Part shown: in pieces, positions 1 to 63,745 of the stretch
Layout: every line of letters starts with the position of its first letter
Position numbering within the stretch: the stretch's first letter is position 1
Assembly (NCBI GenBank): GCA_963726745.1
Contig: CAVSDR010000003.1
Location: 576,001 to 640,000 of the forward strand
DNA from: an uncultured Verrucomicrobiae bacterium
Lineage (GTDB): Bacteria; Verrucomicrobiota; Verrucomicrobiia; Chthoniobacterales; UBA10450
DNA length: 64,000 bases
Direction of reading: 5' to 3'
Made by a program: the position numbers and the translations under genes
Notes under the pieces: model-generated
Told to the model about the DNA's origin: nothing
Seen by the model: only the letters and a program-made list of their open reading frames with translations
Database searches by the model: none

Positions 1-620
1 GCCTGCCCGCGCACGATCGAAAACAACAGCGCCGCCAGGGCGTTCGCGCTCGCGCGGTTGCGGTTTTCTTTGTTCGCGCCCAGGAGCTGCATTTCGCGGC
101 CGTAGGGGCCAAAGCTCCACGGCTTCATCATCAGGCTAAGGTCGTAGCCTAACGAGCTGAAGTAGCGATTGCTGGTGCGCCGGCGGTCGATGAATTCCTC
201 CAGCGCCCTCCCGGTCAGTTCCGGGCCGGCGGTCGTGCCGCTGAGCACGTCCATCAGGTAGGCGGTGGCGTCGTTATCCGAGACGCGGATCATCTCGCGC
301 AGCGCGCGCTCGATCTCCGGCGAGCGCCGGCCTTCCTGGAAAATGTGCGCCATGATGAAGAGCTTCATCACCGAGGCGGGGTAAAACGGCGCCGCGCCGT
401 GAAAGTCCGCGCGCCGCGGCGCGTCCGGCTGCGAGAGATCGATCACGCTGAGCGCAAGGTTCTCCGCGGTGAGCTGCGGGAATTGCCTGCCGGCGGCTTC
501 CGCCGTCGCCGCCAAAGCGCTGCCTAACGAGTCGTCGACCGGGATTTTTTCGAACTCGCGAAAATCAGCCTGCGCCATCGCGGTCATCGCCAGGAGCAGC
601 AGAAGCGCGCCGGGTTTCAC
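1..620 (-). CDS. Class A beta-lactamase-like serine hydrolase, secreted (runs off the window start)
   Basis: Translated by hand from GTG at 620: MKPGALLLLLAMTAMAQAD (signal peptide), FYPASVMK (SxxK), VSDNDA (SDN). Frame stays open to position 1. Confidence 0.8.
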   Translation of the reverse strand, partial: MKPGALLLLLAMTAMAQADFREFEKIPVDDSLGSALAATAEAAGRQFPQLTAENLALSVIDLSQPDAPRRADFHGAAPFYPASVMKLFIMAHIFQEGRRSPEIERALREMIRVSDNDATAYLMDVLSGTTAGPELTGRALEEFIDRRRTSNRYFSSLGYDLSLMMKPWSFGPYGREMQLLGANKENRNRASANALAALLFSIVRGQ

Positions 621-622
621 GC

Positions 623-1264
623 TCAGGAAAAGCGGTCTTCGGTCCACGGATCGGCGGTATTGCTGTAGCCGCGCACTTCCCAGAAGCCGAGTTTGTCCTC
701 CGCGCTAAACTCGATCGCGCGGATGAATTTGGCCCCTTTCCACGCGTAGAGCTTGGGGATGATCACCCGCGCCGGGCCGCCGTGATCGCGTGGGAGCGGC
801 TGGCCGTCGTACTGCGTCGCGATGAGGACGTCGTCATCCATCATTTCGTCGAGGCGGACGTTGGTGGTGTAACCGTCGTAGCTCGAGAAGAGGACGTGCT
901 TCGCCTCCGGCTTCGGCTGCACCAGTTCTGCGAGGGTGAAGAAAGCGACGCCCCTCCAGCGGACGTCGAACTTGCTCCAGGTAGTGACGCAGTGGAAATC
1001 GCTCACGTCCTCGAACTGCGGGAGCGCGTTGAAGCTTTCCCAGGTGAACGTCTGCGGATTTTCCACCAGCCCGCCGACTTCGAGCCGCCAATCGGCCAGC
1101 GGCACCTCGGGTTTGATCCCGAGATCGAGCACGGGAAAGCCGGGCGTGAGATGCTGGCCGGGCGGGAGGCGATCCTCGGAACGCACCGCCGGCTTCGCCT
1201 TCCCGCTCATCTTGCGGGCGAAGCGTTCCTTGCGCTCGATGAAACTCGGATTGGAACTGCTCAC
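623..1264 (-). CDS. Sulfite oxidase-like molybdopterin oxidoreductase (YuiH/MsrP-like)
   Basis: RLPPGQ, DFHCVTTWS (Mo-ligand Cys), HGGPAR, WKGAK and GFWE-RGY motifs. Confidence 0.9.
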   Translation of the reverse strand: MSSSNPSFIERKERFARKMSGKAKPAVRSEDRLPPGQHLTPGFPVLDLGIKPEVPLADWRLEVGGLVENPQTFTWESFNALPQFEDVSDFHCVTTWSKFDVRWRGVAFFTLAELVQPKPEAKHVLFSSYDGYTTNVRLDEMMDDDVLIATQYDGQPLPRDHGGPARVIIPKLYAWKGAKFIRAIEFSAEDKLGFWEVRGYSNTADPWTEDRFS

Positions 1265-1324
1265 GGCAAAAAGGAGACAGCGTTTTCGCGATTACTCAAG
1301 ATCGCGCCGCGCTGAGAATGCCGG

Positions 1325-2083
1325 CTAAACCCGCGACTCGGAGTTTTGCAGCAGCTTGATCGCGTCGCGCAACTCCGCCGCGCGCTCGTAGAGCTCGTTA
1401 TTGATCGCGACTTCCATCTCGCGCTGCATCACCTCGAGCTTCGAAAGCGGGCGCTTCGCGCGCACTTCCTCGAGCCATTCGTCGAGAAACGCGATTTCGG
1501 AGCTCTTCTGCGCGAGTTCCGGGAAGTTCGACTGGAGGAAGAAATCCTCGATCGCATCGCGGCCGCGCTCGATCTCGCTCAAGGCTTCGCCGAAACGTCC
1601 GTCCGCCAGGAGCACGGAGGCTTTCGCGCGCGTGTTCATCATCAGCACGTACGGGCGAAACTGCTGGAAGCTCCAGGCCACTTCGTCGCGCTCGGTGTGA
1701 TGAGCCACGAAGTCGAAAAGGTCGAGGTTCCGCTGGGTGTCGCGGATCACGCCGGCGAAATCATTGATCTGAAAGAGGCTCAGGTAGCGATGGTAATACT
1801 GGATGCCTTCCTGCTGGAGCTCGTTGCACTGGTCGTTCGAGAGCTCATAGCTGTCGCCGCGCGCTTCGGAGCGGGCCGCACGCCGCTGGTGATACTGCAG
1901 AAGCGAATCACAATTATGCGGACGGCCCCCGTCCGGCCGGCCGGTCATCTCCATCTGGAGCATGCCGAGATCGATCCGCAGCTGCAGTTTCTCGCGGCCA
2001 TCGAGGCCGAGAATCTTGCGCACCTTGATCGAGCCGGCTTCGTGCGGCCAGTCGTTCAACAGCGTGTTCAGGTCGAGGCTCAT
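1325..2083 (-). CDS. UvrB/UvrC (UVR) motif-containing protein
   Basis: C-terminal 'MEVAINNELYERAAELRDAIK' UVR motif; N-terminal GRPDG-RPH segment. Start taken at the ATG at 2083. Confidence 0.75.
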   Translation of the reverse strand: MSLDLNTLLNDWPHEAGSIKVRKILGLDGREKLQLRIDLGMLQMEMTGRPDGGRPHNCDSLLQYHQRRAARSEARGDSYELSNDQCNELQQEGIQYYHRYLSLFQINDFAGVIRDTQRNLDLFDFVAHHTERDEVAWSFQQFRPYVLMMNTRAKASVLLADGRFGEALSEIERGRDAIEDFFLQSNFPELAQKSSEIAFLDEWLEEVRAKRPLSKLEVMQREMEVAINNELYERAAELRDAIKLLQNSESRV

Positions 2084-2277
2084 GGCTATCAATGTTCGAT
2101 TAAGCGCTTCCCTTTTGTCAATCGATCCTCCCCGCGACAAAGGTTTCAAAAGGTTCTTCGAATCGGTTCCGCGGGGAGATGCAACAATGAGACGCGCCTC
2201 GCGGCGGCACTGTTCAAATAAACTCCGCGCGCGGACGGTCGTTGCGGGCGGCGCGCTTTTCAGGGAACCTCGCCCTC

Positions 2278-10936: not shown

Positions 10937-10943
10937 GCCACGC

Positions 10944-11597
10944 CTAACGAGTTGCCGGCTGTTCGCGCAGGAGATGGCTCGTGTCCGCCAGGAGGGTGGT
11001 CACCCCGTCCGGCGCGGTCATGTCATAATACCCGCGAATCACGCCCTTCCGGTCGACCAGGGCGGCGTTCGTGCTGTGAATCGGGAACCCGGTTTCCTCG
11101 GCGCCATCCGAGGCCGCGAGATGAAAGCCACGCTGGATTAGCGCGTAAATTTCCGCGCGCGGGCCGGTGAGAAAATCCCACCGCCCCGGCCGTGCCTTTA
11201 GCCGCTCGGCGTAATCTTTCAGAACTGCGGGCGTATCGTTCTCTGGGTCGACACTGAAGGAGACGAGGTGCACATCGGAATTTTCCAGGGGCCGCTGCAT
11301 CTCCGCCATGCGGCTACTGATGATCGGGCATGGGCCTGGGCACTGGGTGAAAACGAAGTCGGCGATCCAGATCTTGCCGGCTAATTCCGCCGAGCCAAAG
11401 GGCTGGCTATTTTGATTCGTTAGGCGGAACTCCGGAACGCTCCCAAGCTCCCGCAGGACACGCTCGCCGTGCGCGCGCACCTGCGCCTGCCGCAGGCCGA
11501 AGAGCAAGGCCGCGGTGACCAGCGGCAGGGCGATGAGGAAAGCGAGCCAGGCGATCGACTTGAACGAACGCGCTGGCGTAGTGCGCGCCGCGCTCAC
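10944..11597 (-). CDS. SCO family copper chaperone
   Basis: FTQCPGPCP (CxxxC), SVDPENDT, conserved His in IHS. Confidence 0.92.
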   Translation of the reverse strand: MSAARTTPARSFKSIAWLAFLIALPLVTAALLFGLRQAQVRAHGERVLRELGSVPEFRLTNQNSQPFGSAELAGKIWIADFVFTQCPGPCPIISSRMAEMQRPLENSDVHLVSFSVDPENDTPAVLKDYAERLKARPGRWDFLTGPRAEIYALIQRGFHLAASDGAEETGFPIHSTNAALVDRKGVIRGYYDMTAPDGVTTLLADTSHLLREQPATR

Positions 11598-12511
11598 GAT
11601 TTTGTCGCCACCAGTAGCGCGAGCAGGAGCGGCAGGTAAATGATCGAGCCGAGGAACAGTTGCCGCGCGCGCCTCACCTCGCGGTCCCAGGCAAAACGAA
11701 GCGCGAGCACGAGGAACAATCCGCTGGCTAGAATTGCCAGCGGCAGGGCCAGGCGCGAAGTGATGTTGAGCAAGGCTGGAGTCGCGCTCGCGGCCAGCAG
11801 GAGCACAGAAAAGAAAACGCTCTGCCGTCCGCTGCGCGCGCCATCGCGGTCACGGCTCGAGAGCATGCGGAAGCCCGCGCGGGCGTAGTCTTCGCGATAC
11901 ATCCAGGAGATGGCGAAGAAGTGCGGCATCTGCCAGCAGAAGAGAATCGCAAACAAGCTCCAGGCGCCCCAGCCGAGCTCGCCGCGGGCGGCGGCCCACC
12001 CGATCATCGGCGGGAGCGCGCCCGGAATCGCGCCCACAAGGGTATTTGTGGTGCTGAGGCGCTTCAAGGGAGTGTAGGCGAGGAGGTAAATCGCGATCGT
12101 GGCCAGGGCGAGCAGGGCGCTTAGACCATTGCAGGCCCACGCCAGGTAGAGCACGCCGCCTAACGAGAGCAAGCTGCCGACGACGAGCGCATCGCGGGGC
12201 AACATCCGGCCGGCGGGGATCGGCCGCGCGCGCGTCCGGTGCATCAAGGCATCGAGCCGGCGCTCCCACCATTGGTTCAGGGCGGCCGCGCCCGCTGCGG
12301 CCAGCGCGGTTCCGAAAACCGCGTGCATCAACGCCAACCCGCCTACTTCCTCGGGTGCGCCAAGGTAAAAACCAACCGCCGTCGTCAGAAGGACGAGCAG
12401 AGTCAGCCGCGCCTTGACCAACTCGGCAAAGTCTCCAACAACGCGGCTGCGGGCCGCGTCCTTGGCGGCGGGTGTTTCCAGCGCGGGCACATCGAGCACG
12501 ACCGTCTTCAA
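11594..12511 (-). CDS. ctaB: Protoheme IX farnesyltransferase (heme O synthase)
   Basis: DALMHRTRARPIP, YTPLKR, GAIPGALPP, WQMPHF. Confidence 0.95.
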   Translation of the reverse strand: MKTVVLDVPALETPAAKDAARSRVVGDFAELVKARLTLLVLLTTAVGFYLGAPEEVGGLALMHAVFGTALAAAGAAALNQWWERRLDALMHRTRARPIPAGRMLPRDALVVGSLLSLGGVLYLAWACNGLSALLALATIAIYLLAYTPLKRLSTTNTLVGAIPGALPPMIGWAAARGELGWGAWSLFAILFCWQMPHFFAISWMYREDYARAGFRMLSSRDRDGARSGRQSVFFSVLLLAASATPALLNITSRLALPLAILASGLFLVLALRFAWDREVRRARQLFLGSIIYLPLLLALLVATKS

Positions 12512-13542
12512 AACGCCGCGACCTCCTCACGTCGAAGCGGGCGGACCGCAACCGTCGCGGTCTCACGCGCACGCAAGCGCAGCGCGAGCGCACAGATGCT
12601 CACGCCTAACGAGAGCATGGTCGCCCCCACCGCGACGTGCGCAGTCGCAACATCGGCGGGCTTGTTGTACCAGATCGTGGCCGCTCCGAGCGTGATCTGG
12701 CAGGCGAGAAAGAACACCCAGAGCGACGAAAGAACGCGCAAAAGCGCGAACCGGCCATCTGCCCGCCGACGCAGGGCGATCCAATAGGTGACCACGCCCG
12801 CGAAGATCAACCCCGCCATGCCGCGATGCGCCATTTGCAGCCAAATCTGGCCCGCGGTCACATTGGAAAGCGCTTGGGCATCGCGCCATTCGTTCACCGC
12901 GATCAGATGCTCCGCGCTCGTGTCCGGCAAAACCCGGCCGTAGGCGGTGGGGAAATCGAGAATGGAAAGATCGCGGTGCTGATGCCGCATGGTCGCGCCC
13001 AAGCCGAGAGTGAAATAAATGCAGAGCGTCGTGATCAGCGGAAGCCAAAGGTGCGCGGAAGGAAGCTGACCCTTGAGGGCGCCCCAGGTGCGGGAATTAG
13101 CCAGCGAGATCACAACCAGTAAACCGAGGAAAGCCTGCGCCAGGAGCGCATGAAAAATCCCGATCTCATCCTTCAACATCGTGACCCGCAACCCCCCAAG
13201 CAGACCCTGCAATATTACGGCACCAAGCGCGGCCCAGCCGAGGACGCGCATCCAGCGGCGCTCATCTGCCCGCCACGTCCAGACCGCAAGAATGATCGTA
13301 AGAAAGCCAACCGTGCTCGCGAGCAGGCGGTGCGTGTGCTCGAAGAAAATTCCGCCGACCCATTGGGAAACGGGGAAAAGGAACATGTTGTAGCCAAAGG
13401 TCGTCGGCCAATCCGGCACTGCCAGGCCCACGCCTTTACTCGTGACCATGCCGCCACTGCAGATCAGAAAAAGGGTAGTCGCCGCCAGCAGCCAGCTGAA
13501 GCGTTGCCGCCAGGAATTGGTTCTCGCCGGTGATGCGCTCAT
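12508..13542 (-). CDS. ctaA: Heme A synthase (COX15/CtaA)
   Basis: GLAVPDWPT, FEHTHR, IFHA, MAHR and TAHV His motifs. Confidence 0.9.
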   Translation of the reverse strand: MSASPARTNSWRQRFSWLLAATTLFLICSGGMVTSKGVGLAVPDWPTTFGYNMFLFPVSQWVGGIFFEHTHRLLASTVGFLTIILAVWTWRADERRWMRVLGWAALGAVILQGLLGGLRVTMLKDEIGIFHALLAQAFLGLLVVISLANSRTWGALKGQLPSAHLWLPLITTLCIYFTLGLGATMRHQHRDLSILDFPTAYGRVLPDTSAEHLIAVNEWRDAQALSNVTAGQIWLQMAHRGMAGLIFAGVVTYWIALRRRADGRFALLRVLSSLWVFFLACQITLGAATIWYNKPADVATAHVAVGATMLSLGVSICALALRLRARETATVAVRPLRREEVAAF

Positions 13543-13614: not shown

Positions 13615-14532
13615 CTACTGGCCCCCGGGAGGCGGTGTACTGCCGGCCGCGGGCGGCAAGGTGGCAGTCGGGTCAGCCGTCTTCGGCGCGCCCGGAGGCG
13701 GCACCGTCCCTTGGTTGGATTCCGGTCCGGGTTCACCCGGCGGACGCACCAGCGGCGGCGGCGCACTGGCCGTGCCCGCGAGCTCGGCGCGCTCCTTCAA
13801 CCAGGCCTGGTAATCCTCCGGAGTGTCGACCACAACCATGCCCTTCATGCTGTAATGGCCGAGGCCGCAAAGCTGACCGCAGACCACCTCGTAGTTCCCG
13901 GTCTTGATTGGGGTGAACCACATCGGGATGATCTGGCCGGGAATCGCGTCCTGCGCGATACGCATCGCCGGCAGGGCGAAATTATGGATCACATCCTTCG
14001 ACGACAGTTCGATGATCACCGGCCGGTTCACCGGCACGTGCAATTCTCCGAGCGCGACGAGATCGTCCTTCCCTTCCGGGCTCGCGGGATCGAGACCAAG
14101 CGGGTTCGAGGTGCTGACTAACGAGACATCGCGCCGGCCAAACTCGCCATCCGGCCCGGGAAGGTGGTAGTTCCAGTTAAACTGCTGGCCGACGACGTGG
14201 ACCAGGAGCGCATTGCTCGCATCCGGAAAATCGTTTACCCGCTTGGCCCAAAGCGGAATCGCAAAGCCAACCAGCAACACCGCCTCGATCAAAACGACGG
14301 CAAATTCCAAGTGCGTCGAGATGCCGCTTTTGACGCCTTCGTGATCGGCTTTCGGGTTCCGGCTCTTGTGAAAGCGGATCAGCACGTAGACGAAAAAAGC
14401 CGACCACCCAAGGAAGAGCGCGCCCATAAACCAGTGGCTGAACTCCAGGATATGGTCGATCTGGAAGCCGTGCGCCGAGGCGTTCGGCGGCTGGCCCAGA
14501 AATTCGTTAATCAGCGCGAGGCAATTAGTCAT
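13615..14532 (-). CDS. coxB: Cytochrome c oxidase subunit II
   Basis: Two TM helices, GQQFNW, DVIHNF, QDAIPG, CuA motif CGQLCGLGHYSM. Confidence 0.93.
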   Translation of the reverse strand: MTNCLALINEFLGQPPNASAHGFQIDHILEFSHWFMGALFLGWSAFFVYVLIRFHKSRNPKADHEGVKSGISTHLEFAVVLIEAVLLVGFAIPLWAKRVNDFPDASNALLVHVVGQQFNWNYHLPGPDGEFGRRDVSLVSTSNPLGLDPASPEGKDDLVALGELHVPVNRPVIIELSSKDVIHNFALPAMRIAQDAIPGQIIPMWFTPIKTGNYEVVCGQLCGLGHYSMKGMVVVDTPEDYQAWLKERAELAGTASAPPPLVRPPGEPGPESNQGTVPPPGAPKTADPTATLPPAAGSTPPPGGQ

Positions 14533-21843: not shown

Positions 21844-21864
21844 CGACACGAAAGAAAATCTCTC

Positions 21865-26044: not shown

Positions 26045-26075
26045 CCGGCAGGATCATTGCTGCGCCTAACGAGTG

Positions 26076-38259: not shown

Positions 38260-38300
38260 ACCCTAACGAGTGAAGTTGCTGCCTAACGAGCGCGTCCGGG

Positions 38301-39902: not shown

Positions 39903-40044
39903 CTTGGAGCGCAGCCTAACGAGAGACGCCGGTGCGCGACAACCGCAAACTCTGGCCGGCCGCGGGATTATTTCCTCGAAAAAGAAAACACGCAATCCGC
40001 GTGCCTCGCGCGATTTCGTGGTGAAACAATAAAGGAGCGACGCG

Positions 40045-43655: not shown

Positions 43656-43717
43656 CCGGCCAGCGGCGCGCCGCGCCTAACGAGAACAAGGTTTCGGCGC
43701 CCGCCATCTCGCTGGCT

Positions 43718-44021: not shown

Positions 44022-44171
44022 CTACAAGGTCCGGCGACCCTGGATCAAATTGATGATCAGGATCACGACCGCGATCACGAGCAGAATGTGGATGAAGCCG
44101 CCGAGGGTATACGAACTAACGAGTCCGAGCAGCCAAAGCACGAGGAGGATAACGAAGATAGTCCAGAGCAT
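44022..44171 (-). CDS. lmo0937 family small membrane protein
   Basis: Hand translation: MLWTIFVILLVLWLLGLVSSYTLGGFIHILLVIAVVILIINLIQGRRTL (49 aa, below the ORF-track cutoff); AAAAGGAA upstream. Confidence 0.88.
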   Translation of the reverse strand: MLWTIFVILLVLWLLGLVSSYTLGGFIHILLVIAVVILIINLIQGRRTL

Positions 44172-44358: not shown

Positions 44359-47023
<2,665 letters not shown>

Positions 47024-50095: not shown

Positions 50096-51232
50096 CTAAA
50101 TCTCCAGGCGCTTCTCGAACTTCGAGATCAAGCGATTCCCGTTTTCAGTCACCACGGCCACATCCTCGATCCGCACACCGCCCAGCCCCGGATAATACAA
50201 CCCCGGTTCCACCGTGATCACCTGCCCCGGCTTGAAGCTCGTTTTCTGAAAGCGCGGGATCTCGTGAATCTCCAGCCCGAGCCCATGCCCGGTGCCATGG
50301 AAAAAGCCCACTTGCTTGCCGTCGCGCACCTCCGTGGGGTAACCGCGATCGGTGAAGAGTTGCTTCACCTCCAGGTGCACCGCGAGGCCATCGGCGCCGG
50401 GCTTCATTTTCTTCAAAGCCAGCGCCTGCCCTTCGCGCACCGTTTCCCAGAGCTTTCGCTGTTCGTCGCTCGCGCTCCCGCGCACCACCGTGCGGGTCAT
50501 GTCGCCGTAGTAACCGCTCGCCGCGTCGCGCGGGAAGATGTCGAGAATGATCAACGAATCCGCGAGGAGCGGGCCAGAGCCGCGCTCGTGCGGATCGCAC
50601 GCCTGGTCGCCGCCGGCCACGATCGTGCCCGCGGGCAAGCCGCCCGCGCGCAAGACCGCGGAGTCAATTTCCGCGCGCAGAATCTCCGAAGTGAGCACGC
50701 GCCCGAACCAATCGAGCCGCTTGTTCCGCCGCGCCTTGCAGGCCGCGAGCACCTCGATCGCGCGCGCCATTCCCTGCTCCGTGATCGAAAGCGCGCGCCG
50801 CATCAGGCGCAATTCGTCGTCTGTTTTTGTTTCGCGCTCCGGGAAGAAGAGACCGCTGACGGTTTTCACGCGGATGCCCGCGCGCGCCAGCTCCTCGGCG
50901 TAGCCTAACGAGAAATTAGCCGGCACGATCGCGGACTTCACCCCGCGCTTCTGGAGGAAATGCGTGAGCACTTTCTCGTAGGCTGGGGCGCGCTTCGCCG
51001 ACCCCTGCACTTCGCGCTCGAACTCGCTGTAGGCAACAATCTCATCCGCCTGCGCCTGCTTCTTCCCGCGGTCGATCTCGAGATCGCTCAAGACCACCGT
51101 GCGCTTCCCGTTTTGCTCCAGAAAGATGAACGGATCCGGCACAAACATGCGCGTCGCGTAGAGCATGTCGGGATCGTGCTCGCTCGAAGCGACGATCAGG
51201 CGGGTGGGAGATTTCTCGGATTTCTTGCTCAC
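50096..51232 (-). CDS. Xaa-Pro aminopeptidase (M24 family)
   Basis: DIFP, GDMTRT, HGTGHGLGLEIHE, EPGLY, GVRIED. Confidence 0.92.
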   Translation of the reverse strand: MSKKSEKSPTRLIVASSEHDPDMLYATRMFVPDPFIFLEQNGKRTVVLSDLEIDRGKKQAQADEIVAYSEFEREVQGSAKRAPAYEKVLTHFLQKRGVKSAIVPANFSLGYAEELARAGIRVKTVSGLFFPERETKTDDELRLMRRALSITEQGMARAIEVLAACKARRNKRLDWFGRVLTSEILRAEIDSAVLRAGGLPAGTIVAGGDQACDPHERGSGPLLADSLIILDIFPRDAASGYYGDMTRTVVRGSASDEQRKLWETVREGQALALKKMKPGADGLAVHLEVKQLFTDRGYPTEVRDGKQVGFFHGTGHGLGLEIHEIPRFQKTSFKPGQVITVEPGLYYPGLGGVRIEDVAVVTENGNRLISKFEKRLEI

Positions 51233-51263: not shown

Positions 51264-54200
51264 TCACCCCCGCCGCACTTCCAGCTGGCGGCGGAGGATC
51301 CAGAGGAGCAGGCCGAGGAGCGCAAGCGAGGAGGTGACCAGGACCATGGTGTTGAAGGTAAAGACGCTCACTTTCATCCCGAGGTAGCGTTTCTCCGCGC
51401 CGAAAAAGACGTTCGGCTTCCCGCCACGGCGGTAGTCGTTTTGCTCGATCTCGGCGTTCGAGATCAGGTCGGAAATCTTCTGGTTGATGTAGAGCTGCTC
51501 TGCGGTGATCTCGCCGCTGGCGTTCCGAAAATCGCTCCGCTGGAAAGGCCGTTTTCCGGCCACCACGCGATCGATCACGTCGAGGTAGCGGTCGACTTCT
51601 TTCGGCGTTTTCGCTTCGAGGCCGGAAAGGATCGCGAGGATTTCCTTCAGATCGTTCAAGCGCGCGGCGGTCTCCGGCGTCTTCGCCGCGGGCGCGAGGC
51701 GACGGATCTCGGCGTTTACTTTTTCCTGGCGCCGGGTGAGCGGATTCAGCTTCGCCTGCGCCACGATGATCTCCTCGTAGGACCAGCGCATGCCGATGAA
51801 CTGGCAGACGAACGGCACCTTGAGCTTGCTGTCCATTTTCTTGCTCTGCTCCTCGCTCGGATGCTCCGCGAACCAGCGGCTCATGGAATGGACGAAACCC
51901 AGGTTGCGATTCATGTCCTCGAATTTCAGGAGCGCCCCGCTCATCAAAATCTGCGGAATCAAGATCAACGGCACCACGTTGGCCGCGCTCTTGGCATTCG
52001 CGACTAACGAGGAGACGACCAGGCCAAGCGAGAGGCTGCTGATCGCGGTCAGGAACATGAGCCCGAGGTGAATCCAAAACATCCCGCGGACCTCGAGGAT
52101 CCAATTCCCGATGAGGACAAAGAGAGTGCACTGCACGAGCGCGAAGACCGCGAGCGAGGTGATCTTCGCGAGCACGTAATAGGGCAGGCGGATGTTGAGA
52201 TTCCGCTCGCGCTCCAGGACCGCGCGATCGGAAACGATGTCGTCCACGCTGTTGGTTAACGAGAGGAACATCGCCACCAGCAGCCCGAGAAATAGATACA
52301 TCGGGATGTGATAAGCGGAGGCGAAGTCGTAGGCGCCGCTGTCGGAATAGTGCAGGAGCGTGGCGATCAGGAGCGCGAGCAACGGCGCCGCGCCGATCGT
52401 GATCCGGAGGTTGCCGCGATTGCGCAGCTTGCTGATAAACGCGCGCTTCATCAGCGTGCGCAGTTGGGTCCACTCATCATGCCAGCGGATCTGCGTGCGG
52501 CGCTCTTTTTTAGGCGGCGCTTTCGGCAGCGGCACCGCCGGTTCGCGTCGCAGCGAGATCTGCTTCACGTCCTGGATCAGGCGGAAGGCCTCGTATTTAT
52601 CGCGCCAGAATTCCGGCGAGTAACGCCGCGCCGGGACGAGCTGCCCGCGGTTGTTCTCCTCGTAAATGACGTCGCCGCTGATGTCGCGCAGCGGCGTTTC
52701 GAGGACGTCGAAGATGAATTCCGGCCGCGTCGTCCCGCAGGACGGACACGCGCCCAGGTCGGCGCCGAATTGATGCTGATGCTCCGCTTCCGCGAAGTAG
52801 CGCAGCATGTCCGTGGGCGTGCCGAAGAAGACCAGGCGGCCGCCTTTGTCGAACAGGATCGCCTTGTGAAACATCTGGAAAAGTTTCGAGCTCGGCTGGT
52901 GGATCGTGACCACGATGATCTTGTTGTGCGCCATCCCGCGGATGATCTCGATCACGTGCTCGCTGTCCTTCGAGGAGAGGCCGCTGGTCGGCTCGTCGAA
53001 GAGGTAAACGTCGGCGTTGCCGATCATATCCAGGCCGATGTTGAGCCGCTTCCGCTCGCCGCCGCTGAGGGTTTTTTTCACCGGGCTGCCGACCACGCTG
53101 TCGCGCCGCTCGCTCAAGCCGAGCTCGACCAATTTGCTCTCTAATCGCCGCGTGCGATCGCGCCGCGAGAGATGCGGCGAGCGGATCGCGGCCGCGAACT
53201 GGAGGTTCTCGCCGATGGTCAGGTTCTCGTCGAAGGCGTCCTCCTGCGGAATGTAGGAGACGTAGCGCTTGAGATCGTCGAGGTGATCGTAGAGCGACTC
53301 GTCGTTGAGCAGCACCTTGCCGCTGGTCGCTTGCAACTGGCCACCGAGCACCTTTAGCAGCGTGCTCTTGCCCGAGCCGCTCGCGCCCATCACGCAAACG
53401 AGCTCGCCGCGATTGATCGCAAAGGAAATGCCCTCGAGCGCGATCTCGCCGTTGCCGAAACGGTGGTTCACATCCGTGACCTCGAGGCTGCGGATGATGT
53501 TCCGCTCCTCCTCGATGATTCGCTCGGAGAAATTGCACCGGAGGAACTGGCCGGTGTCGATCCGGATGGTCTCGCCATCCTTCAACGGCGCCGTCCCGCG
53601 CACGGCCACATCGCCGACCATGATCGGGCGGTCGGCTTCGATCACTTCCAGCGTGCCGACGCGTTCGTCGTAATCGCAGAGAATCTTCAGGAGGACATCG
53701 CCGCTGGTGCCCGGAGACAGCAGGATGTCGTCCTCCTCCAGCAGGCTGGGATTATTCGAGACGAGGTATTCCGACTTCGAGGCCTTGAGCTGGAAGCGGC
53801 CGCCCATGGCGCGCGCGCGCCGGCGGAGATCGATCAAGTCCATCTCGCTGTCGTTATGGAAAACGATCCGGTCATCGAGCGTGGCCTCGACCACCGTGCC
53901 CGACGAAAGGCGGACGCCATTGATCACCGCGTCGACATCGCGCAGCGCTTTCACGCGGACCTTCAAGCCGAAAGTGATCTCGAGAGAACTGTCGCGCGAT
54001 TTCGAGCGCTCGAGCTGCACCTCCTCGGCATCCTTCGGCACACGCACGTAGATCTGCGGGAGGGAGACGTTCTTCTTCGCGTTAAAATAGGCAGCAAGCT
54101 CTTGATACGTGAGCACGTGGTCGCCCACGAGGATGCGCTGTCCGGGATAGATCCGGCAAAAGCCCCCGCGCGGCAGCGGCCGACCGCGCACGGAGACCGA

Positions 54201-54893
54201 CTGCGCGCTGTAATTCTTCAGCAGGATGAGATCGTGATAGCGGAAGGCCAGCAGGCGGTCGCTCGCTTCCAGCGTTTTCAAACGGACGTCAAAAGTCCCA
54301 CTGGCGCCGAACGAAAGCGACTCCAGCGGCGAAGCGCCGCGCTGGTAGATCGAAGCGTCAGAATCCTCGGACGCGTTGAGCTGATAGACGATGTCGATCG
54401 CCTGCGCCGCCATCCCGAGCTGCGACATGAAGGAGTAAAACGCGACCACCTGCTCCTGCTTCAGGCCGGCCTGCGAGATCAGGTCGTAGAGCTGCACCCC
54501 GAGCATGATCTTGCGATCGGCGCTCAATTGGTTGGCTAATTTCTGCGCCATCGCCCCGAGATCCTGCTGCTCGTAGAGCGCCTGGCGGAAAAGCTGCCGC
54601 AACTCGGAATAGACCGCTTCCGGATAATCGTAACGGAGGAAGCCTAACGAGCTGTCGATTTCCTCCTCGAGCAGGACGCCGTCGGCCTTGGAAAAGCCGG
54701 CCAGCACCTGGATGAGCAGCGGGAGGAGATTCGGCGCCTCGGCCACGCTCCGCGGTTTGCGCAGCGCGCGCCGCACCCAGCGCCGGCCCTGGCGTTGCAC
54801 CCGGTAGGCAAACGGCGTCACGCGCTGCACCGCGCGATCGATCCGATCGGCCAGGCTCGGCGGGGAGGGTGGAGCGGGTGCGGGTTCAGCCAT
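51264..54893 (-). CDS. Large fused ABC transporter: TerB-like N-domain, FHA-like beta regions, NBD and ABC-2 TMD
   Basis: GASGSGKST, LSGGERKR, LFDEPTSGL, TIHQP; ERERN and LIPQIL TMD motifs; N-terminal FSKADG..EEE. Start taken at the ATG at 54893. Confidence 0.85.
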   Translation of the reverse strand: MAEPAPAPPSPPSLADRIDRAVQRVTPFAYRVQRQGRRWVRRALRKPRSVAEAPNLLPLLIQVLAGFSKADGVLLEEEIDSSLGFLRYDYPEAVYSELRQLFRQALYEQQDLGAMAQKLANQLSADRKIMLGVQLYDLISQAGLKQEQVVAFYSFMSQLGMAAQAIDIVYQLNASEDSDASIYQRGASPLESLSFGASGTFDVRLKTLEASDRLLAFRYHDLILLKNYSAQSVSVRGRPLPRGGFCRIYPGQRILVGDHVLTYQELAAYFNAKKNVSLPQIYVRVPKDAEEVQLERSKSRDSSLEITFGLKVRVKALRDVDAVINGVRLSSGTVVEATLDDRIVFHNDSEMDLIDLRRRARAMGGRFQLKASKSEYLVSNNPSLLEEDDILLSPGTSGDVLLKILCDYDERVGTLEVIEADRPIMVGDVAVRGTAPLKDGETIRIDTGQFLRCNFSERIIEEERNIIRSLEVTDVNHRFGNGEIALEGISFAINRGELVCVMGASGSGKSTLLKVLGGQLQATSGKVLLNDESLYDHLDDLKRYVSYIPQEDAFDENLTIGENLQFAAAIRSPHLSRRDRTRRLESKLVELGLSERRDSVVGSPVKKTLSGGERKRLNIGLDMIGNADVYLFDEPTSGLSSKDSEHVIEIIRGMAHNKIIVVTIHQPSSKLFQMFHKAILFDKGGRLVFFGTPTDMLRYFAEAEHQHQFGADLGACPSCGTTRPEFIFDVLETPLRDISGDVIYEENNRGQLVPARRYSPEFWRDKYEAFRLIQDVKQISLRREPAVPLPKAPPKKERRTQIRWHDEWTQLRTLMKRAFISKLRNRGNLRITIGAAPLLALLIATLLHYSDSGAYDFASAYHIPMYLFLGLLVAMFLSLTNSVDDIVSDRAVLERERNLNIRLPYYVLAKITSLAVFALVQCTLFVLIGNWILEVRGMFWIHLGLMFLTAISSLSLGLVVSSLVANAKSAANVVPLILIPQILMSGALLKFEDMNRNLGFVHSMSRWFAEHPSEEQSKKMDSKLKVPFVCQFIGMRWSYEEIIVAQAKLNPLTRRQEKVNAEIRRLAPAAKTPETAARLNDLKEILAILSGLEAKTPKEVDRYLDVIDRVVAGKRPFQRSDFRNASGEITAEQLYINQKISDLISNAEIEQNDYRRGGKPNVFFGAEKRYLGMKVSVFTFNTMVLVTSSLALLGLLLWILRRQLEVRRG

Positions 54894-55905: not shown

Positions 55906-57131
55906 TCTTGGAATTCGCGTGCGCCACAGGCTACGGACCTGTGCGCGATGCGGTATCCTTCTGCGCGCAAAACCGACCGCAGGACCAGACACTTCACTGC
56001 CCGTCCAGCCATCTATCGTCGTTAGTGCGCTGGGCGGATCGATCTTCTCGTAGCTTCGCGAAGGCGATTGTCGCCGGATCCGGTTCTCACTTTCGATTCA
56101 CAGAGGGTTCGGCGAGGAACCAAACCCTCCCCGGCGCGCTCGGAGGATTGGTGAGTCGGTCGAGATCATCGGGCAACTCCCGAAAAGTCATGCAATTGCG
56201 CCGGATGTGAAAGCAAACTGCACGATTCTGGAACTAACCCCGGCGCCCCTCCGAAACCTTGCCGCCTTCCCCTTCCAACCTGTGATAGACGAAAAAAGGT
56301 TCGCCTTTAAAGACGAAGAGCGTTTTGCCGTTCAGATCCAGCGTGGTTGTCGCGTCCTTCGTTTAATTCTCGTTAGGTCTTTGACCGTCGACGTTTCTCC
56401 TCACATGGAATCCGGATAAGTGGACGTGGAAGGCACTCGACGAGGATTACGACCTGTTGGGGCAAGGTTCTTGACGGCCGATGGAGCTGCGGACTGTCTC
56501 GGTATCGCGCGGCGACGCGTATTCCGTTCGCAGGTCGGGAGCAGCGCGCATCTGGCACGGGTGTAGTCACTCAGAAAGTCAAGAACGATATCCAATCGAG
56601 ATCGGAGGTATCGACTCGATGGAGCTTCGACGTATCGCTCGAGCAAAGCCGAAAGCAGTTACTGTCTCGAGCGCGGCTCAATGAGCCCAGCTCGCCACAG
56701 CGATCCAAACACCAGGCCGGCTTGATAGCCATCTCGACTGATGATCCGCCGCGCTAGAGGAATCGTGGCGTGGGTTTTTGCTTCGCGCGGTTACTCTCCG
56801 ATAGTTCTCGCCGAAGAGATGCTGCGGCAGAGCGCTTCTGGCGAGCGTCCGCTCCCCTAAACGGGAACGGCTGATCAGCGCGATCTCGTAGAAAGCGTCA
56901 TAGCCCATTTCCGACGTAGATGCGCGTTTGCGGCATCGACTTCGCACATGTTTTGTGACTTGGGCACTGGCTTCACTCACGTCATCACACCGACCTATCG
57001 GAGATCGCCGCGGCACGCCGGTTGATCCGCAGAGACCTGTGCCCGTTTCCCGAACGCAGGTATGCTTCGTCGCGCACGCCGCCGCTCAGCGTGACCGAGA
57101 TCAAGCGCATTCGAAATGAACGAAGACAAAG

Positions 57132-57254
57132 GCTCAACCTGTAGTGATGCAGCTAACCGCGGGCCGCTCCCTACCAACTTCTGGGATGGCTACCACAATT
57201 CCAGCTGCACCATGCGCCGCCCCGCCAGCGGTAGCTGATCTTGTCTCGTTAGGC
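57132..57254 (+). other. attC recombination site
   Basis: GCTCAAC (RYYYAAC) to GTTAGGC (GTTRRRY), 123 bp; inner arms CAGCTAACCGC / GCGGTAGCTG pair with a single bulged base. Confidence 0.75.
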
Positions 57255-61037: not shown

Positions 61038-61078
61038 CGCGCTCTTGACCTGCGGCAGGCAGAGCAGAGAGTCTTCCC

Positions 61079-61288: not shown

Positions 61289-61496
61289 ACTGCCGCGGGT
61301 TTCCGGCGCGGAGGCGGTGCGAACTCTCGAGCGTTTAGGGTTCTCCGTCGTTCGGCAGCGTGGCAGTCACATCATCATGCGCAGAGGAGGGTCTGGGTGC
61401 GTCGTTCCGAATCATCGGGAGATCAAGGCTGGCACTCTCGCGGGCGTTCTGCGGCAGGCGGGAGTTTCCATAGAGGAATTCATTTCTGCGCAATGA
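61281..61496 (+). CDS. hicA: HicA family toxin (mRNA interferase)
   Basis: [30 protein letters not shown]; overlaps the hicB stop. Confidence 0.9.
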
Positions 61497-61502
61497 CACC
61501 CG

Positions 61503-61523
61503 CCCTAGAGCGTGCGGCGGCCG
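61503..61523 (+). repeat. 21-bp direct repeat, right of hicBA
   Basis: Identical to 61017-61037. Confidence 0.85.
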
Positions 61524-61707
61524 TGCGCGGCGATATCCAGCACGGCAAGTATTCCTTTCCCCGGCGAACCGAGCACGGCAGGGGCGGCGGCGGGTGGCTT
61601 TCCCGCCACGTCTCCCCATGGCGGCGGCGTGGCCCCTGCTCTTTTGCAATGCCAAATCCTTCATGGTAACCTCCCTGTCCCTCATTTTGGGGGCGCGCTT
61701 ACCTCTT

Positions 61708-63745
61708 ATGGCCCAACCAGATCGCAACTCGAAAAAGGAGAACAAACCCGGCGGCACCGACCCCAGTTTCAACTGGCGCGGCGTGGTCCTGATCGCCATC
61801 GCTTTCTCCCTCATTGCCCTCGCGGTGCTCTTCCGCGGCGGCGCCTACGCCAACGTGGAGGATGTGCCTTACAATCGCTTCCTCGAGCTGCTGGAAAACA
61901 AGCAGATCGCGAACGACAAAAACTTCCCGCTCCAGCTGGTGGTCGAGGAGGGTGTGCCCACGCAAACGCTCCGCGGCTATTACATCCGCCAGGCGACCGG
62001 CCCGAACCAGGCCGCGCAGGTCCCCTTCCGCACGACCATTTTCCTGAACTACAACACGAACCTGCAGGATAAGCTGAGCGAGGCCGGGATTCAGCCCGCG
62101 ATCAAGCGCGACTCGAACGTCTGGATGCAGACGCTCATGGGCTTCCTCCCGATCGCGTTTTTCCTGCTCGTGCTCTACTTCCTCTTCCGCCAGCAGATCC
62201 GCATGGCCGGCAAGGGCGCGCTCAACTTCGGCAAGTCGAAGGCGCGCATGCTCGCGCGCGACAAGAACAAGATCACCTTCAAGGACGTCGCCGGCGTCGA
62301 GGAAGCGAAGGACGAAGTGACCGAGCTGGTCGAGTTCCTGCGCGATCCGAAGAAGTTCCAGAAACTCGGCGGCCGCATCCCGAAAGGCGTGCTCCTGGTC
62401 GGCCCTCCGGGAACGGGCAAGACGCTCCTGGCTCGCGCGATTGCCGGCGAGGCCGATGTGCCGTTTTTCTCGATCAGCGGTTCGGACTTCGTGGAAATGT
62501 TTGTCGGCGTCGGCGCGAGCCGCGTGCGCGACATGTTCGAGCAGGGCAAGAAGAGCGCGCCGTGCATTATTTTCATCGATGAGATCGACGCCGTGGGCCG
62601 GCATCGCGGCCATGGCGTGGGCGGCGGGCATGATGAGCGCGAGCAGACGCTCAATGCGCTGCTCGTCGAGATGGATGGCTTCGACACGCAGGAAGGCGTG
62701 ATCATCATCGCCGCGACCAACCGCCCCGATGTGCTCGATCCGGCGCTGCTGCGTCCCGGGCCGTTTCGACCGCCAGATCACGGTGAACTTGCCGGATGTG
62801 AAGGGCCGCGAGGAAATCCTGCGCGTTCATTCCAAGAAGGTGAAGCTCGCGGAAGGCGTCGACCTCCAGGTGGTCGCGCGCGGCACGCCGGGCTACTCCG
62901 GCGCGGAATTAGCCAACGTGATCAACGAAGCGGCACTGCTGGCCGCACGTCGCGGGCTCAAGGGAATCACGCTCAAGGAACTCGAAGAAGCGCGCGACAA
63001 GGTCCGCTGGGGCAAGGAACGCCGCAGCCTGGCGTTGAGCGAAAAGGAGAAGACGAACACCGCTTACCACGAAGCCGGCCACGCGCTCCTGCTCGAACTG
63101 CTCCCGCACACCGAGCCGTTGCATAAGGTCACGATTATCCCGCGCGGCCCTTCGTTAGGCAGCACCATGTGGCTCCCGGAAGAGGACAAATACACCAATC
63201 GTAAAAACGAACTCCTCGCCAGCCTGGTGGTGAAAATGGGCGGCCGCGTCGCGGAAGAAATCGTCTTTGGCGACGTGACCAACGGCGCCAGCGGCGACAT
63301 CAAGATGGCGACGAACGTCGCCCGCCGGATGGTCTGCGAATGGGGCATGAGCGAGAAGATGGGCATGGTGGAATACGGCGAGCACGAAGACTACGTCTTC
63401 CTCGGCCGCGACATCTCGCGGGCGCGGGATTACAGCGAAGCGACCGCGGAAGAGATCGACCGCGAAGTGCGCAAGCTGATCGACGACGCTTACGCGAAAG
63501 CGAAGAGCGAGTTGACCAACCATCGCGACAAGCTCGAGATCATCGCCCGGGCGCTGTTGGAATTCGAAACGCTCGATGGCGCGCAGATCCGCGACATCAT
63601 CGAGCACGGCCGGATGTTGAATCCGCCTCCGGGCCCCGACGCCAAGGGTCCCGACATGCCGGCGGAAAAGCCGCCCAAGCAAGTCGTGCTCGCGCCGGAA
63701 GTGAATCCTCCGCTCCCCGGCGGACTGAGCGGCGCCCCGGCCTAG
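61708..63745 (+). CDS. ftsH: ATP-dependent zinc metalloprotease FtsH; +1 frameshift at about 62758-62760, probably a sequencing error
   Basis: Two TM helices, [29 protein letters not shown] across the shift, HEAGH. Confidence 0.93.

What the first reader, a model, noticed from the sequence alone, without database searches (positions are those of the whole stretch)
148..63159. Highly iterated non-palindromic motif (G)CCTAACGAG written into core genes with rare codons: candidate uptake-sequence-like or chromosome-organising signal
Seen, counted by eye so possibly incomplete: exact CCTAACGAG on + at 148, 523, 10943, 12159, 12605, 17802, 26065, 38262, 38282, 39915, 43676, 45332, 47973, 50904 and 54643, and on - (CTCGTTAGG) at 26988, 39163, 56369 and 57245. 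That is 19 copies, 14 of which extend to GCCTAACGAG. Thirteen more copies carry one mismatch but keep CTAACGA (11416, 14117, 20291, 20720, 21839, 24099, 30652, 30852, 38602, 44115, 45799, 52003, 63151). A zero-order estimate at about 63% GC predicts roughly 0.5 exact copies. The motif sits in coxA, ctaA, ctaB and ligA, with variants in ftsH, coxB and actF. It occurs in several frames: TCG-TTA-GGN (S-L-G), CTA-ACG (L-T), CCT-AAC-GAG (P-N-E), GTT-AGG (V-R) and as stop codons, so it forces TTA, CTA and AGG codons that look scarce elsewhere here. It also occurs in short intergenic gaps. Established: DNA uptake sequences of Neisseria and Pasteurellaceae and cyanobacterial HIP1 show this frame-independent pattern. 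Inference: the signal acts at the DNA level (uptake, Chi-like, nucleoid-protein or methylation-linked). I do not recognise it as a described motif.
Basis: partly seen in the sequence, partly recalled or inferred. Interest (0 to 1): 0.9.

Follow-up and report, generated by a model that had tools for sequence, protein, structure and literature searches.

The report
Hyper-abundant DNA word in soil Verrucomicrobia
The 9-10-base word GCCTAACGA(G) is written about 1,300 times, by point mutation and on both strands, through the genes and spacers of this uncultured soil bacterium and most of its family, a pattern best known from the "self" tags that Neisseria and Haemophilus use to choose which DNA to take up, although its function here is untested.

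Summary
CCTAACGAG occurs 19 times in the window (0.29 expected), and the core CTAACGA 34 times. Genome-wide there are 1312 copies of GCCTAACGA in 3.41 Mb, 54-82 times the Markov expectation and 47 times a synonymous-codon shuffle. The word sits in all four stop-free frames, in spacers and on stop codons. It shows no strand polarity, no hairpin or terminator context and no flanking homology, and it aligns gap-free with ordinary codons in relatives. So it is a DNA-level signal made by substitution. It encodes 57% of all Ser-Leu-Gly tripeptides. It is family-wide: at least 3 times a control word in 60 of 81 genomes (36 genera) of one Chthoniobacterales family, and at background in 16 genomes of other families of the order. 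Copies are shared at orthologous sites between word-rich genomes (43% against 8.5% for control 9-mers). A second, unrelated word, AAGATCGACA, dominates other genera and coexists with this one in one genus. My best reading (0.45) is a DNA-uptake-like self-recognition tag; a HIP1-like chromosomal word is the main rival. Chi/KOPS, methylase-linked and ComP-dependent versions lost support. I found no paper describing it. This scan has noted the same word before in at least four other genomes.

The parts
147..156 (+). GCCTAACGAG, inside a minus-strand gene that runs off the window start
522..531 (+). GCCTAACGAG, same gene
10942..10951 (+). GCCTAACGAG overlapping the stop codon of the SCO1/SenC gene (10944-11597, -)
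11416..11425 (-). GCCTAACGAA in SCO1/SenC gene
12158..12167 (+). GCCTAACGAG in UbiA/CtaB gene, read antisense as Ser-Leu-Gly
12604..12613 (+). GCCTAACGAG in COX15/CtaA gene
14116..14125 (+). GACTAACGAG in COX2 gene
17801..17810 (+). CCCTAACGAG in COX1 gene; core also present at this site in G002 and G003
20291..20300 (-). GGCTAACGAG in circularly permuted ATP-grasp gene
20719..20728 (+). CCCTAACGAA in same gene; identical 9-mer in G044
21838..21847 (+). GCCTAACGAC whose TAA is the stop codon of the Alpha-E gene (20806-21843)
24098..24107 (+). GGCTAACGAG in ATP-grasp/Alpha-E fusion gene
26064..26073 (+). GCCTAACGAG in spacer just outside cytochrome c gene end (26076)
26988..26997 (-). GCCTAACGAG in spacer 26834-27698
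30651..30660 (+). GGCTAACGAG in 400-aa gene of the alternative-complex-III cluster
30851..30860 (+). GCCTAACGAC in same gene; relatives have TGGTGCGGC / TCGTGCGGC here
31318..31327 (+).
38261..38270 (+). CCCTAACGAG in spacer 37996-38301
38281..38290 (+). GCCTAACGAG in same spacer, 20 nt from the previous copy (a rare close pair)
38601..38610 (+). GCCTAACGAA in PBP_like_2 gene
39163..39172 (-). CCCTAACGAG in same gene
39914..39923 (+). GCCTAACGAG in same gene
43675..43684 (+). GCCTAACGAG in spacer after PDZ-protein gene
44114..44123 (+). AACTAACGAG in spacer before ligA
45331..45340 (+). GCCTAACGAG in ligA (Pro-Asn-Glu); nucleotide-identical in 10 further word-rich congeners, variable in word-poor ones
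45799..45808 (-). GGCTAACGAG in ligA; shared only with the two closest relatives; Val to Leu change
47972..47981 (+). CCCTAACGAG in trypsin-like/PDZ protease gene
50903..50912 (+). GCCTAACGAG in M24 peptidase gene
52002..52011 (+). GACTAACGAG in ABC transporter gene
54642..54651 (+). GCCTAACGAG in ABC transporter gene; identical in G044, AGCCTxGGx in word-poor species
56018..56027 (-).
56369..56378 (-). ACCTAACGAG in the insert
57245..57254 (-). GCCTAACGAG in the insert
63151..63160 (-). GCCTAACGAA in ftsH (M41 part); TCGTTAGGT in G044, TCGCTCGGC in word-poor species

Best explanation
GCCTAACGA(G), with the strict core CTAAC(G/a)A, is a DNA-level recognition word read as duplex DNA by an unidentified sequence-specific protein. 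It has been spread through the chromosome by point substitutions wherever the cost is tolerable.

The most likely driver is a transfer bias of the DNA-uptake-sequence type. Fragments carrying the word would be taken up preferentially, through the type IV pilus / ComEA / ComEC / DprA route that the genome encodes, and recombined in. The word would then accumulate in the shared gene pool of the family and tag 'self' DNA.

Shown: hyper-abundance, frame and strand independence, origin by substitution, a sharp specificity profile, family-wide spread, maintenance at orthologous sites, and scarcity in low-GC polysaccharide islands.

For: - Abundance: 1312 copies of the 9-mer and 820 of the 10-mer, which is the commonest 10-mer in the genome. 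This is 54-82 times (9-mer) and 106-188 times (10-mer) Markov orders 0-3, and 47-75 times a synonymous shuffle.
- Location: of the 1312 copies, 417 are sense and 514 antisense to genes, 232 lie in spacers and 149 on gene ends. All four stop-free frames are used.
- Proteome imprint: 424 of 742 Ser-Leu-Gly and 145 of 235 Pro-Asn-Glu tripeptides are spelled with the word. Those tripeptides are 1.6 and 2.4 times commoner than composition predicts.
- Stop codons: 183 of 867 TAA and 108 of 961 TAG stops lie in the core.
- Specificity: single changes at positions 3-7 and 9 fall to 0-28 copies, against 820 for the consensus.
- No polarity: 681 + and 631 -; neighbouring copies share orientation in 656 of 1305 pairs.
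- Spacing: close pairs are depleted (11 at 100 nt or less against 50 expected).
- Origin by substitution: gap-free alignment with non-word codons in relatives.
- Maintenance: 36 of 83 G000 sites are identical in word-rich G044, against 8.5% of control 9-mers. The figures are 7 of 18 and 6 of 20 in two other word-rich genera, and 0 of 14, 1 of 17 and 0 of 6 in word-poor genera.
- Taxonomic range: at least 3 times control in 60 of 81 family genomes. In 16 genomes of other families of the order the 10-mer count does not exceed the control word's, except in G028 (14 against 21, strongly one-sided; see noticed in passing).
- Word-free tracts: the longest are low-GC polysaccharide/O-antigen clusters with atypical codon use.
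- Machinery: ComEC, DprA, a ComEA-like HhH protein, 3 secretins and 18 prepilin-type genes are present.
Against: - No uptake or transformation data exist for these uncultured bacteria.
- The competence genes are near-universal. ComEC is present in 30 of 31 congeners, word-poor ones included, so they do not discriminate.
- No ComP_DUS family member scores over the cut-off in G000, and only 1 borderline case in 81 family genomes.
- Unlike DUS/USS, the word has no link to terminators or inverted pairs. Only 2 inverted pairs lie within 60 nt. MFE at stop-codon copies is -23.1 against -22.9 for other genes. Density is equal (0.75-0.78 per kb) in convergent, divergent and tandem spacers.
- Two unrelated words coexist at high density in one genus, which would need two readers.
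- A G000-specific low-GC insert in the window still holds 3 cores in about 6.4 kb.
- Sharing at conserved Ser-Leu-Gly sites fits independent saturation (18/5/5/4 table). Common descent of copies is therefore not shown.
- HIP1 shows that a hyper-abundant conserved word need not be an uptake signal.
Confidence: 0.45

Rival explanations
1. HIP1-like selected chromosomal word. A cytoplasmic DNA-binding protein (nucleoid organisation, repair or replication) reads the word, and each copy is kept by cell-level selection rather than by transfer bias.
For: Copies are conserved between distant word-rich genomes far above control, as the abstract of PMC5861425 reports for HIP1. Density is fairly even and close pairs are avoided. 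There is no terminator link. Two words in one genome is easy if there are two readers.
Against: Word density ranges from background to 1.35 per kb among related genera with similar genomes, which is odd for a core chromosomal function. Word-poor species keep only relic copies, 6 of 9 of them at G000 sites. No candidate reader is known, and periodicity was not tested.
Confidence: 0.27
2. Methylation-linked word. An orphan methyltransferase marks the word, and a methyl-dependent process (repair, transformation as proposed for HIP1, or defence) maintains it.
For: HIP1 carries methylase sites, and recent work links it to methylation-dependent transformation (abstract of PMC13756078; search listing for 10.1101/2024.09.10.611283). 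The second word contains GATC and TCGA.
Against: The only intact methyltransferase found in G000 with the two families searched (PF01555, PF02384) is present in 76 of 81 family genomes at 58-77% identity (full-length matches), regardless of word density. The hsdM-like genes are fragments at contig ends. Dam-class (D12) enzymes occur in 19 of 81 genomes and were not found in two of the three genomes richest in the second word. C5 and other methylase classes were not searched.
Confidence: 0.1
3. Neutral mutational or repair bias. A sequence-specific repair or conversion process keeps regenerating the word without any function for the word itself.
For: Very high saturation of suitable peptide contexts (57% of Ser-Leu-Gly) and apparently independent saturation in two lineages look like a strong directional pressure.
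Against: The pressure must recognise 7-9 positions at once and create the word from sequences two or more substitutions away (CTC to TTA), changing amino acids on the way: the peptide over the word differs from G002 at 53 of 73 sites. I know of no repair bias with that reach. One-off variants are not enriched.
Confidence: 0.1
4. Chi-, KOPS- or AIMS-like polar signal guiding a recombination nuclease or a DNA translocase.
For: Short, asymmetric and over-represented in core genes. One weak PDDEXK_1 nuclease hit.
Against: No strand polarity at any scale. Counts are 681 + and 631 -, neighbours share orientation in 656 of 1305 pairs (p 0.87), and there is no link to GC-skew sign (500:463 against 181:167). 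RecC was not found in a 94.7%-complete genome. Enrichment is far above that of known Chi sites (recalled).
Confidence: 0.03
5. Mobile micro-repeat (REP/MITE-like) or assembly artefact.
For: High copy number.
Against: There is no conserved flank beyond 10-11 nt, no hairpin and no insertion relative to orthologues. The word is present in 81 independently assembled genomes.
Confidence: 0.01

Closest known systems
USS of Pasteurellaceae (uptake signal sequence; 9-base core)
   Same: A non-palindromic 9-10-base word with about a thousand copies, mostly inside genes in every permitted frame. It distorts codon and tripeptide usage, has no strand polarity, is spaced more evenly than chance at short range, and is a family-level trait. 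My figures are; the USS properties are recalled, apart from the abstract read.
   Different: A different phylum and an unrelated sequence. There are no clear AT-rich flanking segments (only weak T at +8 and A/T at +11) and no terminator association. Uptake is untested. The proposed USS receptor (minor pilin ComN/PpdA; search listing of PMC12616744) was not searched for here.
DUS of Neisseriaceae and its dialects, read by minor pilin ComP (PMC3630211; PMC3868556)
   Same: Thousands of copies, family-wide with lineage-specific variation. Here position 10 is G in G000, C in G003 and unconstrained in G072. A short core tolerates no change (compare the CTG core in the abstract read). The word is scarce in putatively foreign islands.
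   Different: No ComP_DUS (PF16732) member was found. About half of DUS/USS copies lie in terminators, often as inverted pairs (abstract); here none do. Variation in this family includes a wholly unrelated second word, not only 1-3-base dialects.
HIP1 (GCGATCGC) of cyanobacteria (PMC5861425, PMC4390886, PMC13756078)
   Same: Over-representation of 15-300 fold, conservation of sites within and between genes, phylum- or family-scale spread with exceptional low-abundance lineages, and no peptide or RNA role (abstract; my).
   Different: HIP1 is a palindrome that embeds sites of two orphan methylases. This word is asymmetric, and no methylase tracks it. Periodicity was not tested here.
Chi sites / KOPS
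   Same: Short asymmetric over-represented words in core DNA.
   Different: Those are strongly strand-polar with respect to replication. This word is not.

Membership tests
DNA uptake enhancing sequences (DUS/USS) | Short non-palindromic word, hundreds to thousands of copies, far above composition and codon expectation | tested here: met
   1312 copies of the 9-mer, 54-82 times Markov orders 0-3. In CDS, 614 copies of the 10-mer against 8.2 in a synonymous shuffle.
DNA uptake enhancing sequences (DUS/USS) | Both orientations, no replichore polarity, inside genes in all permitted frames as well as between genes | tested here: met
DNA uptake enhancing sequences (DUS/USS) | Shared by a whole bacterial family, with lineage variants | tested here: met
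   At least 3 times control in 60 of 81 genomes of 36 genera. 16 genomes of other families of the order are at background. Position-10 variants.
DNA uptake enhancing sequences (DUS/USS) | About half of copies within transcriptional terminators, often as inverted pairs (abstract of 10.1101/2025.10.24.684340) | tested here: not met
   2 inverted pairs within 60 nt among 1305 neighbour pairs. No extra folding energy or T-runs at stop-codon copies. Equal density in all spacer classes.
DNA uptake enhancing sequences (DUS/USS) | Word-bearing DNA is preferentially bound, taken up and transformed | not testable with these tools
   Uncultured lineage. Only the generic uptake genes were located.
Neisseriaceae DUS system | ComP minor pilin receptor (Pfam ComP_DUS, PF16732) | tested here: not met
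   Best G000 hit is 21.9 bits, below the 27.3 cut-off. 1 borderline hit over the cut-off in 81 family genomes, with no relation to word density.
HIP1-type iterated words | Palindromic octamer | tested here: not met
   The word and its extended logo are asymmetric.
HIP1-type iterated words | Sites conserved between genomes beyond background | tested here: met
   36 of 83 sites (43%) against 8.5% of control 9-mers, G000 versus G044. 7 of 18 and 6 of 20 across genera.
HIP1-type iterated words | Embedded target of orphan DNA methyltransferases that co-occur with the word | tested here: inconclusive
   One intact beta-class adenine methylase is a family-wide core gene (76 of 81). D12 class is patchy (19 of 81). 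Other classes and actual methylation were not examined.
HIP1-type iterated words | Periodic spacing of 10-90 kb along the chromosome | not tested
   The genome is in 7 contigs; only short-range spacing was analysed.
Chi / KOPS / AIMS | Orientation skewed with the direction of replication | tested here: not met
   656 of 1305 neighbours share orientation. No link to GC-skew sign.
Chi | RecBCD or AddAB reader present | tested here: inconclusive
   RecC family not found. One weak PDDEXK_1 match at 31.8 bits.
REP / MITE-type repeats | Inserted unit with hairpin and conserved flanks | tested here: not met
   No flank conservation. Gap-free orthologous alignments. No hairpin.

The most novel reading that the evidence does not exclude
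One family of abundant soil Verrucomicrobia (Chthoniobacterales) runs an evolvable 'genome barcode' system. At least two unrelated words, GCCTAACGA and AAGATCGACA, are each written thousands of times. They replace one another between genera and coexist in one genus. They are read by swappable receptors of a DNA-transfer pathway, so that word turnover sets the boundaries of gene flow, and so of speciation, in an uncultured soil lineage. This would be a third, independently evolved uptake-specificity system, the first outside Proteobacteria, and the first with wholesale word replacement rather than dialect drift.
Probability: 0.3. Interest if true: 0.9.

Novelty: new variant of a known kind. Interest (0 to 1): 0.78.

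Why it matters
By the abstracts read here, sequence-specific DNA uptake is established only in Neisseriaceae and Pasteurellaceae, and the function of cyanobacterial HIP1 is still debated.

A word with the same genomic signature, in a dominant and uncultured soil lineage of another phylum, would matter in three ways:
- It suggests that self-recognition tags are a recurrent solution, not a proteobacterial curiosity.
- It predicts that these soil bacteria are naturally transformable and exchange DNA mainly within the family.
- It gives a practical handle. The word can mark which metagenomic contigs, islands and mobile elements belong to the native gene pool, and it could improve DNA delivery if a member is cultured.

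The word also measurably reshapes the proteome and stop-codon usage, which matters for codon models and gene callers on these genomes.

Tried and rejected
1. Maximum-order Markov expectation is uninformative (ratio about 1), because the sub-words are themselves dominated by the word. I used orders 0-4 and a codon shuffle instead.
2. I first took GGAAGTAGGAAG in G002 for a replacement 'dialect'. One search showed it is a tandem 7-bp repeat in a few arrays (20 copies, all on one strand). Rejected. Later k-mer scans counted only copies more than 100 nt apart.
3. ComEC presence against word density: present in 30 of 31 congeners, so no contrast.
4. Methylase tests and ComP_DUS: no association.
5. 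Rfam on the window: 0 families.
6. Paper searches for the word itself returned only primers and unrelated sequences (250 papers, 20 listed). 'Uptake sequence' with 'Verrucomicrobia' gave 3 unrelated papers. 'Udaeobacter' with 'competence' gave 9 unrelated papers.
7. Sequencing runs: only fragmentary soil-metagenome contigs from one study, holding 0.18 and 0.10 of the sampled words. One 157-nt contig covers the copy at 47972-81 with 5 differences, none in the word. This is too thin, and possibly not independent of the assembly, to count as evidence.
8. PDB and NCBIfam look-ups of the pilin-like cassette in the window: only weak similarities ('Verru_Chthon cassette protein B' at 18 bits, GspJ at 19 bits). 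No receptor candidate emerged.
9. Earlier-findings look-ups by sequence and by relatives found nothing. Look-ups by words found the same word in other genomes.
10. A receptor hunt by presence or absence of the 18 prepilin-type genes was not attempted.

Full report
OBSERVATION. Dinucleotide shuffles predict 0.29, and none of 100 shuffles exceeds 2. One search shows that 14 of the 19 extend to GCCTAACGAG and that all 13 listed variants keep CTAACGA.

GENOME-WIDE. The window is C3:576001-640000 of a 3.41-Mb, 7-contig, 63.8% GC assembly. GCCTAACGA occurs 1312 times, GCCTAACGAG 820 times (the commonest 10-mer of the genome) and the core CTAACGA 2025 times. All seven contigs carry it. Against Markov models of order 0-3 the 9-mer is 54-82 times and the 10-mer 106-188 times over-represented. 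The logo is G(0.87) C(0.75) CTAACGA G(0.64) T(0.44), with no conserved flank beyond that. Single substitutions at positions 3-7 and 9 drop to 0-28 copies. Position 8 tolerates A (93 copies), position 2 tolerates G (166), and position 10 is 'not T' (G 820, C 237, A 226, T 29). This is the profile of a specific protein-DNA contact, not of a decaying repeat.

A DNA-LEVEL SIGNAL. With my own ORF-and-codon-score gene caller (2731 genes, 84.5% coding), the 1312 copies split into 417 sense, 514 antisense, 232 intergenic and 149 straddling gene ends. All four frames without an in-frame stop are used. Shuffling synonymous codons within each gene leaves 8.2 copies of the 10-mer (maximum 15 in 30 shuffles) where 614 are observed, and 19.7 copies of the 9-mer where 936 are observed.

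The word accounts for 16% of all TTA, 18% of CTA and 8% of AGG codons. It also spells 424 of 742 Ser-Leu-Gly and 145 of 235 Pro-Asn-Glu tripeptides. These tripeptides are themselves 1.6 and 2.4 times commoner than composition predicts, while permuted tripeptides are mostly not (0.6-1.75 times). So the word has changed protein sequences, not only codons. It also supplies stop codons: 183 of 867 TAA and 108 of 961 TAG stops lie in the core.

Density is 0.49 per kb inside genes and 0.75-0.78 per kb in convergent, divergent and tandem spacers alike. Stop-codon copies show no extra hairpin energy (-23.1 against -22.9 kcal/mol, p 0.50) and no extra T-runs. Only 2 inverted pairs lie within 60 nt. Short spacings are depleted (11 at 100 nt or less against 50 expected; 33 at 200 nt or less against 98), and long gaps are in excess (10 over 15 kb against 3.7 for the 9-mer; 15 over 10 kb against 5.3 for the core).

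The two longest word-free tracts are surface-polysaccharide loci, one of them (the 25-kb C7 tract) low in GC at 0.58 and both atypical in codon use: glycosyltransferases, DegT aminotransferases, a Wzy ligase domain and exosortase. The most codon-adapted fifth of genes also carries fewer copies (0.43 against 0.57-0.59 per kb), as expected if rare codons are costly there.

NO POLARITY. Strand counts are 681 + and 631 -. Neighbouring copies share orientation in 656 of 1305 cases (p 0.87). Orientation is unrelated to the sign of local GC skew. The window's own 15:4 bias follows its excess of minus-strand genes combined with the favoured antisense Ser-Leu-Gly frame. This argues against Chi, KOPS or AIMS. 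In addition, RecC was not found, and only one weak PDDEXK_1 match exists.

ORIGIN AND MAINTENANCE. In ligA the copy at 45331-40 is nucleotide-identical (TTG/CTG CCT AAC GAG) in 11 of 28 aligned congeners, G000 included. All eleven are among the more word-rich species, and they include a deeply diverged clade. The other 17 show variable codons and residues (Pro-Asp-Glu, Pro-Gly-Lys and so on). The copy at 45799-808 is shared only with the two nearest relatives and replaces Val by Leu (rows G001, G008 and G046 are unpublished genomes). Across the window, copies align gap-free with ordinary codons, for example TCGTTAGGC against TCGCTCGGC or AGCCTGGGC. The word therefore arises by substitution, not insertion.

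At larger scale I compared G000 with two congeners. Against word-rich G044 (252 orthologue pairs, 91,347 codons, 71% median identity), 36 of 83 G000 sites carry the identical 9-mer, against 8.5% of control 9-mers. Against word-poor G002 (229 pairs, 76% identity), only 6 of 73 do (control 11.3%), and the peptide over the word differs at 53 of 73 sites. Six of G002's own 9 copies sit where G000 also has one, so they look like relics.

Between genera the same holds: 7 of 18 sites shared with G095 and 6 of 20 with G072, against 0 of 14, 1 of 17 and 0 of 6 with three word-poor genera. One caution applies. At tripeptides that are Ser-Leu-Gly in both G000 and G044, the joint table (18 both, 5, 5, 4 neither) equals what independent 72% saturation predicts. 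Shared sites therefore show ongoing maintenance in both lineages, not necessarily inheritance.

TAXONOMIC RANGE. All 31 sampled congeners exceed a reversed-word control, with 138 to 2425 copies. On a ligA tree (26 of 30 rows kept; 4 short rows dropped) the rich species form two clades. Sixteen genomes of other families of the order hold 0-14 copies of the 10-mer. Within the family (81 genomes, 36 genera) the 9-mer is at least 3 times control in 60 genomes, at least 10 times in 22 and under 1.5 times in 7. It peaks at 4336 copies in 3.2 Mb, and the strands are balanced overall (26,698 against 26,628). Titles of related records place the lineage among uncultured soil Chthoniobacterales ('Spartobacteria') MAGs. 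Earlier notes of this scan say the same.

A SECOND WORD. A k-mer scan of a word-poor genus turned up a different dispersed word, AAGATCGACA. Across the same 81 genomes AGATCGACA reaches 4941 copies (1.7 per kb). It is abundant in 26 genomes. In 23 of those the first word is weak or at background, and in 3 (one genus) both are dense (0.3-0.6 and 1.4-1.7 per kb). Seven genomes have neither. The two densities are negatively related (Spearman -0.37; the genomes are kin, so this is descriptive only). In the genus with both, each word is strand-balanced and has its own logo. G000 has 60 copies against 22-34 expected. An apparent third word in G002 proved to be a tandem heptamer array, and I withdrew it.

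CANDIDATE READERS.
- Competence genes: G000 encodes ComEC, DprA, a small ComEA-like HhH protein, three secretins and 18 prepilin-type proteins. These are common genes, and ComEC is present in 30 of 31 congeners whatever their word density.
- ComP: no ComP_DUS member passes the cut-off.
- Methylases: the only intact DNA methyltransferase found with the two families searched (PF01555, PF02384), a beta-class adenine enzyme, is a core gene of the family (76 of 81). The hsdM-like pieces are broken.
- Dam-class enzymes are patchy and were not found in two of the three genomes richest in the second word.

INTERPRETATION. The facts require a process that favours one exact 7-10-base duplex word at thousands of unlinked sites, in either orientation. 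It must be limited by coding cost, sustained for as long as the genera of a family have diverged, and able to fade or be replaced. Preferential transfer of word-bearing DNA (uptake sequences) does exactly this, and I rank it first (0.45). It differs from DUS/USS in lacking terminator copies and a ComP homologue.

A HIP1-like word kept by cell-level selection is the main rival (0.27). Methylation-linked (0.10) and pure repair-bias (0.10) versions follow. Polar signals (0.03) and repeats or artefacts (0.01) are nearly excluded.

LITERATURE. I read the abstracts of 10.1101/2025.10.24.684340, PMC3630211, PMC5861425 and PMC13756078. I saw only the search listings of PMC4390886, PMC3868556, PMC12616744 and 10.1101/2024.09.10.611283. 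No paper found or 57 describes this word or uptake sequences in Verrucomicrobia.

EARLIER SCAN NOTES. This scan has already reported the same word (as GCCTAACGA or TCGTTAGGC) in at least four other Chthoniobacterales genomes.

UNPUBLISHED GENOMES. Rows for G001, G008, G046, G048, G052 and G059 rest on unpublished genomes. No conclusion depends on them alone.

Noticed in passing
sister genera of the family (G072, G079, G051 and others); G000 has only 60 copies: A second, unrelated hyper-abundant word, AAGATCGACA (core GATCGAC), reaches 1.7 per kb. It largely replaces the first word in many genera and coexists with it in one genus.
   Followed up: partly
window 55200-61600: Stretch absent from the syntenic regions of the five relatives whose fetched region spans this junction (G044, G002, G005, G003, G015). 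GC is 0.55-0.59 over 55.5-59.5 kb. It contains only short ORFs with no Pfam family, yet holds 3 word cores.
   Followed up: partly
window 61594-63745: ftsH is read in two overlapping frames: 61594-63126 with the AAA domain, and 62729-63745 with the M41 domain. This is either a frameshift or an assembly error. My gene caller wrongly called an antisense ORF (61699-62781) here.
   Followed up: no
window 8383-10936: Three-gene pilin-like cassette: a 168-aa protein weakly like 'Verru_Chthon cassette protein B', a 202-aa protein with a prepilin N-terminus, and a 482-aa DUF7305 protein. It lies inside a 10.4-kb word-free stretch of well codon-adapted genes.
   Followed up: partly
whole genome (G000): Stop-codon usage is nearly even (TAG 961, TGA 903, TAA 867) in a 64% GC genome. 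291 of 2731 called genes end inside the word's core.
   Followed up: partly
G000 genome; G002:C1, G012:C96 and others: Tandem short-period arrays. (GCCAAC)n and (CCGACT)n hexamer runs top the 12-14-mer lists in G000. Heptamer (GGAAGTA)n arrays occur in several congeners.
   Followed up: no
G000 C4:370399-373932 and C6:1-2751: Fragments of hsdM-like methylase genes beside truncated DarT/DarG-like genes at two contig ends. This is probably a decayed or unassembled defence island.
   Followed up: no
G000 C7:47001-87000 and C3:2001-22000: The two longest word-free tracts are polysaccharide, O-antigen and exosortase clusters; the C7 tract has low GC (0.58).
   Followed up: yes
G028 (another family of the order), contigs C7, C13, C21: Twelve forward copies of the 10-mer against two reverse, spaced about 450-900 nt apart on a few contigs. 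This looks like a repeat-containing gene or element rather than a dispersed word.
   Followed up: no
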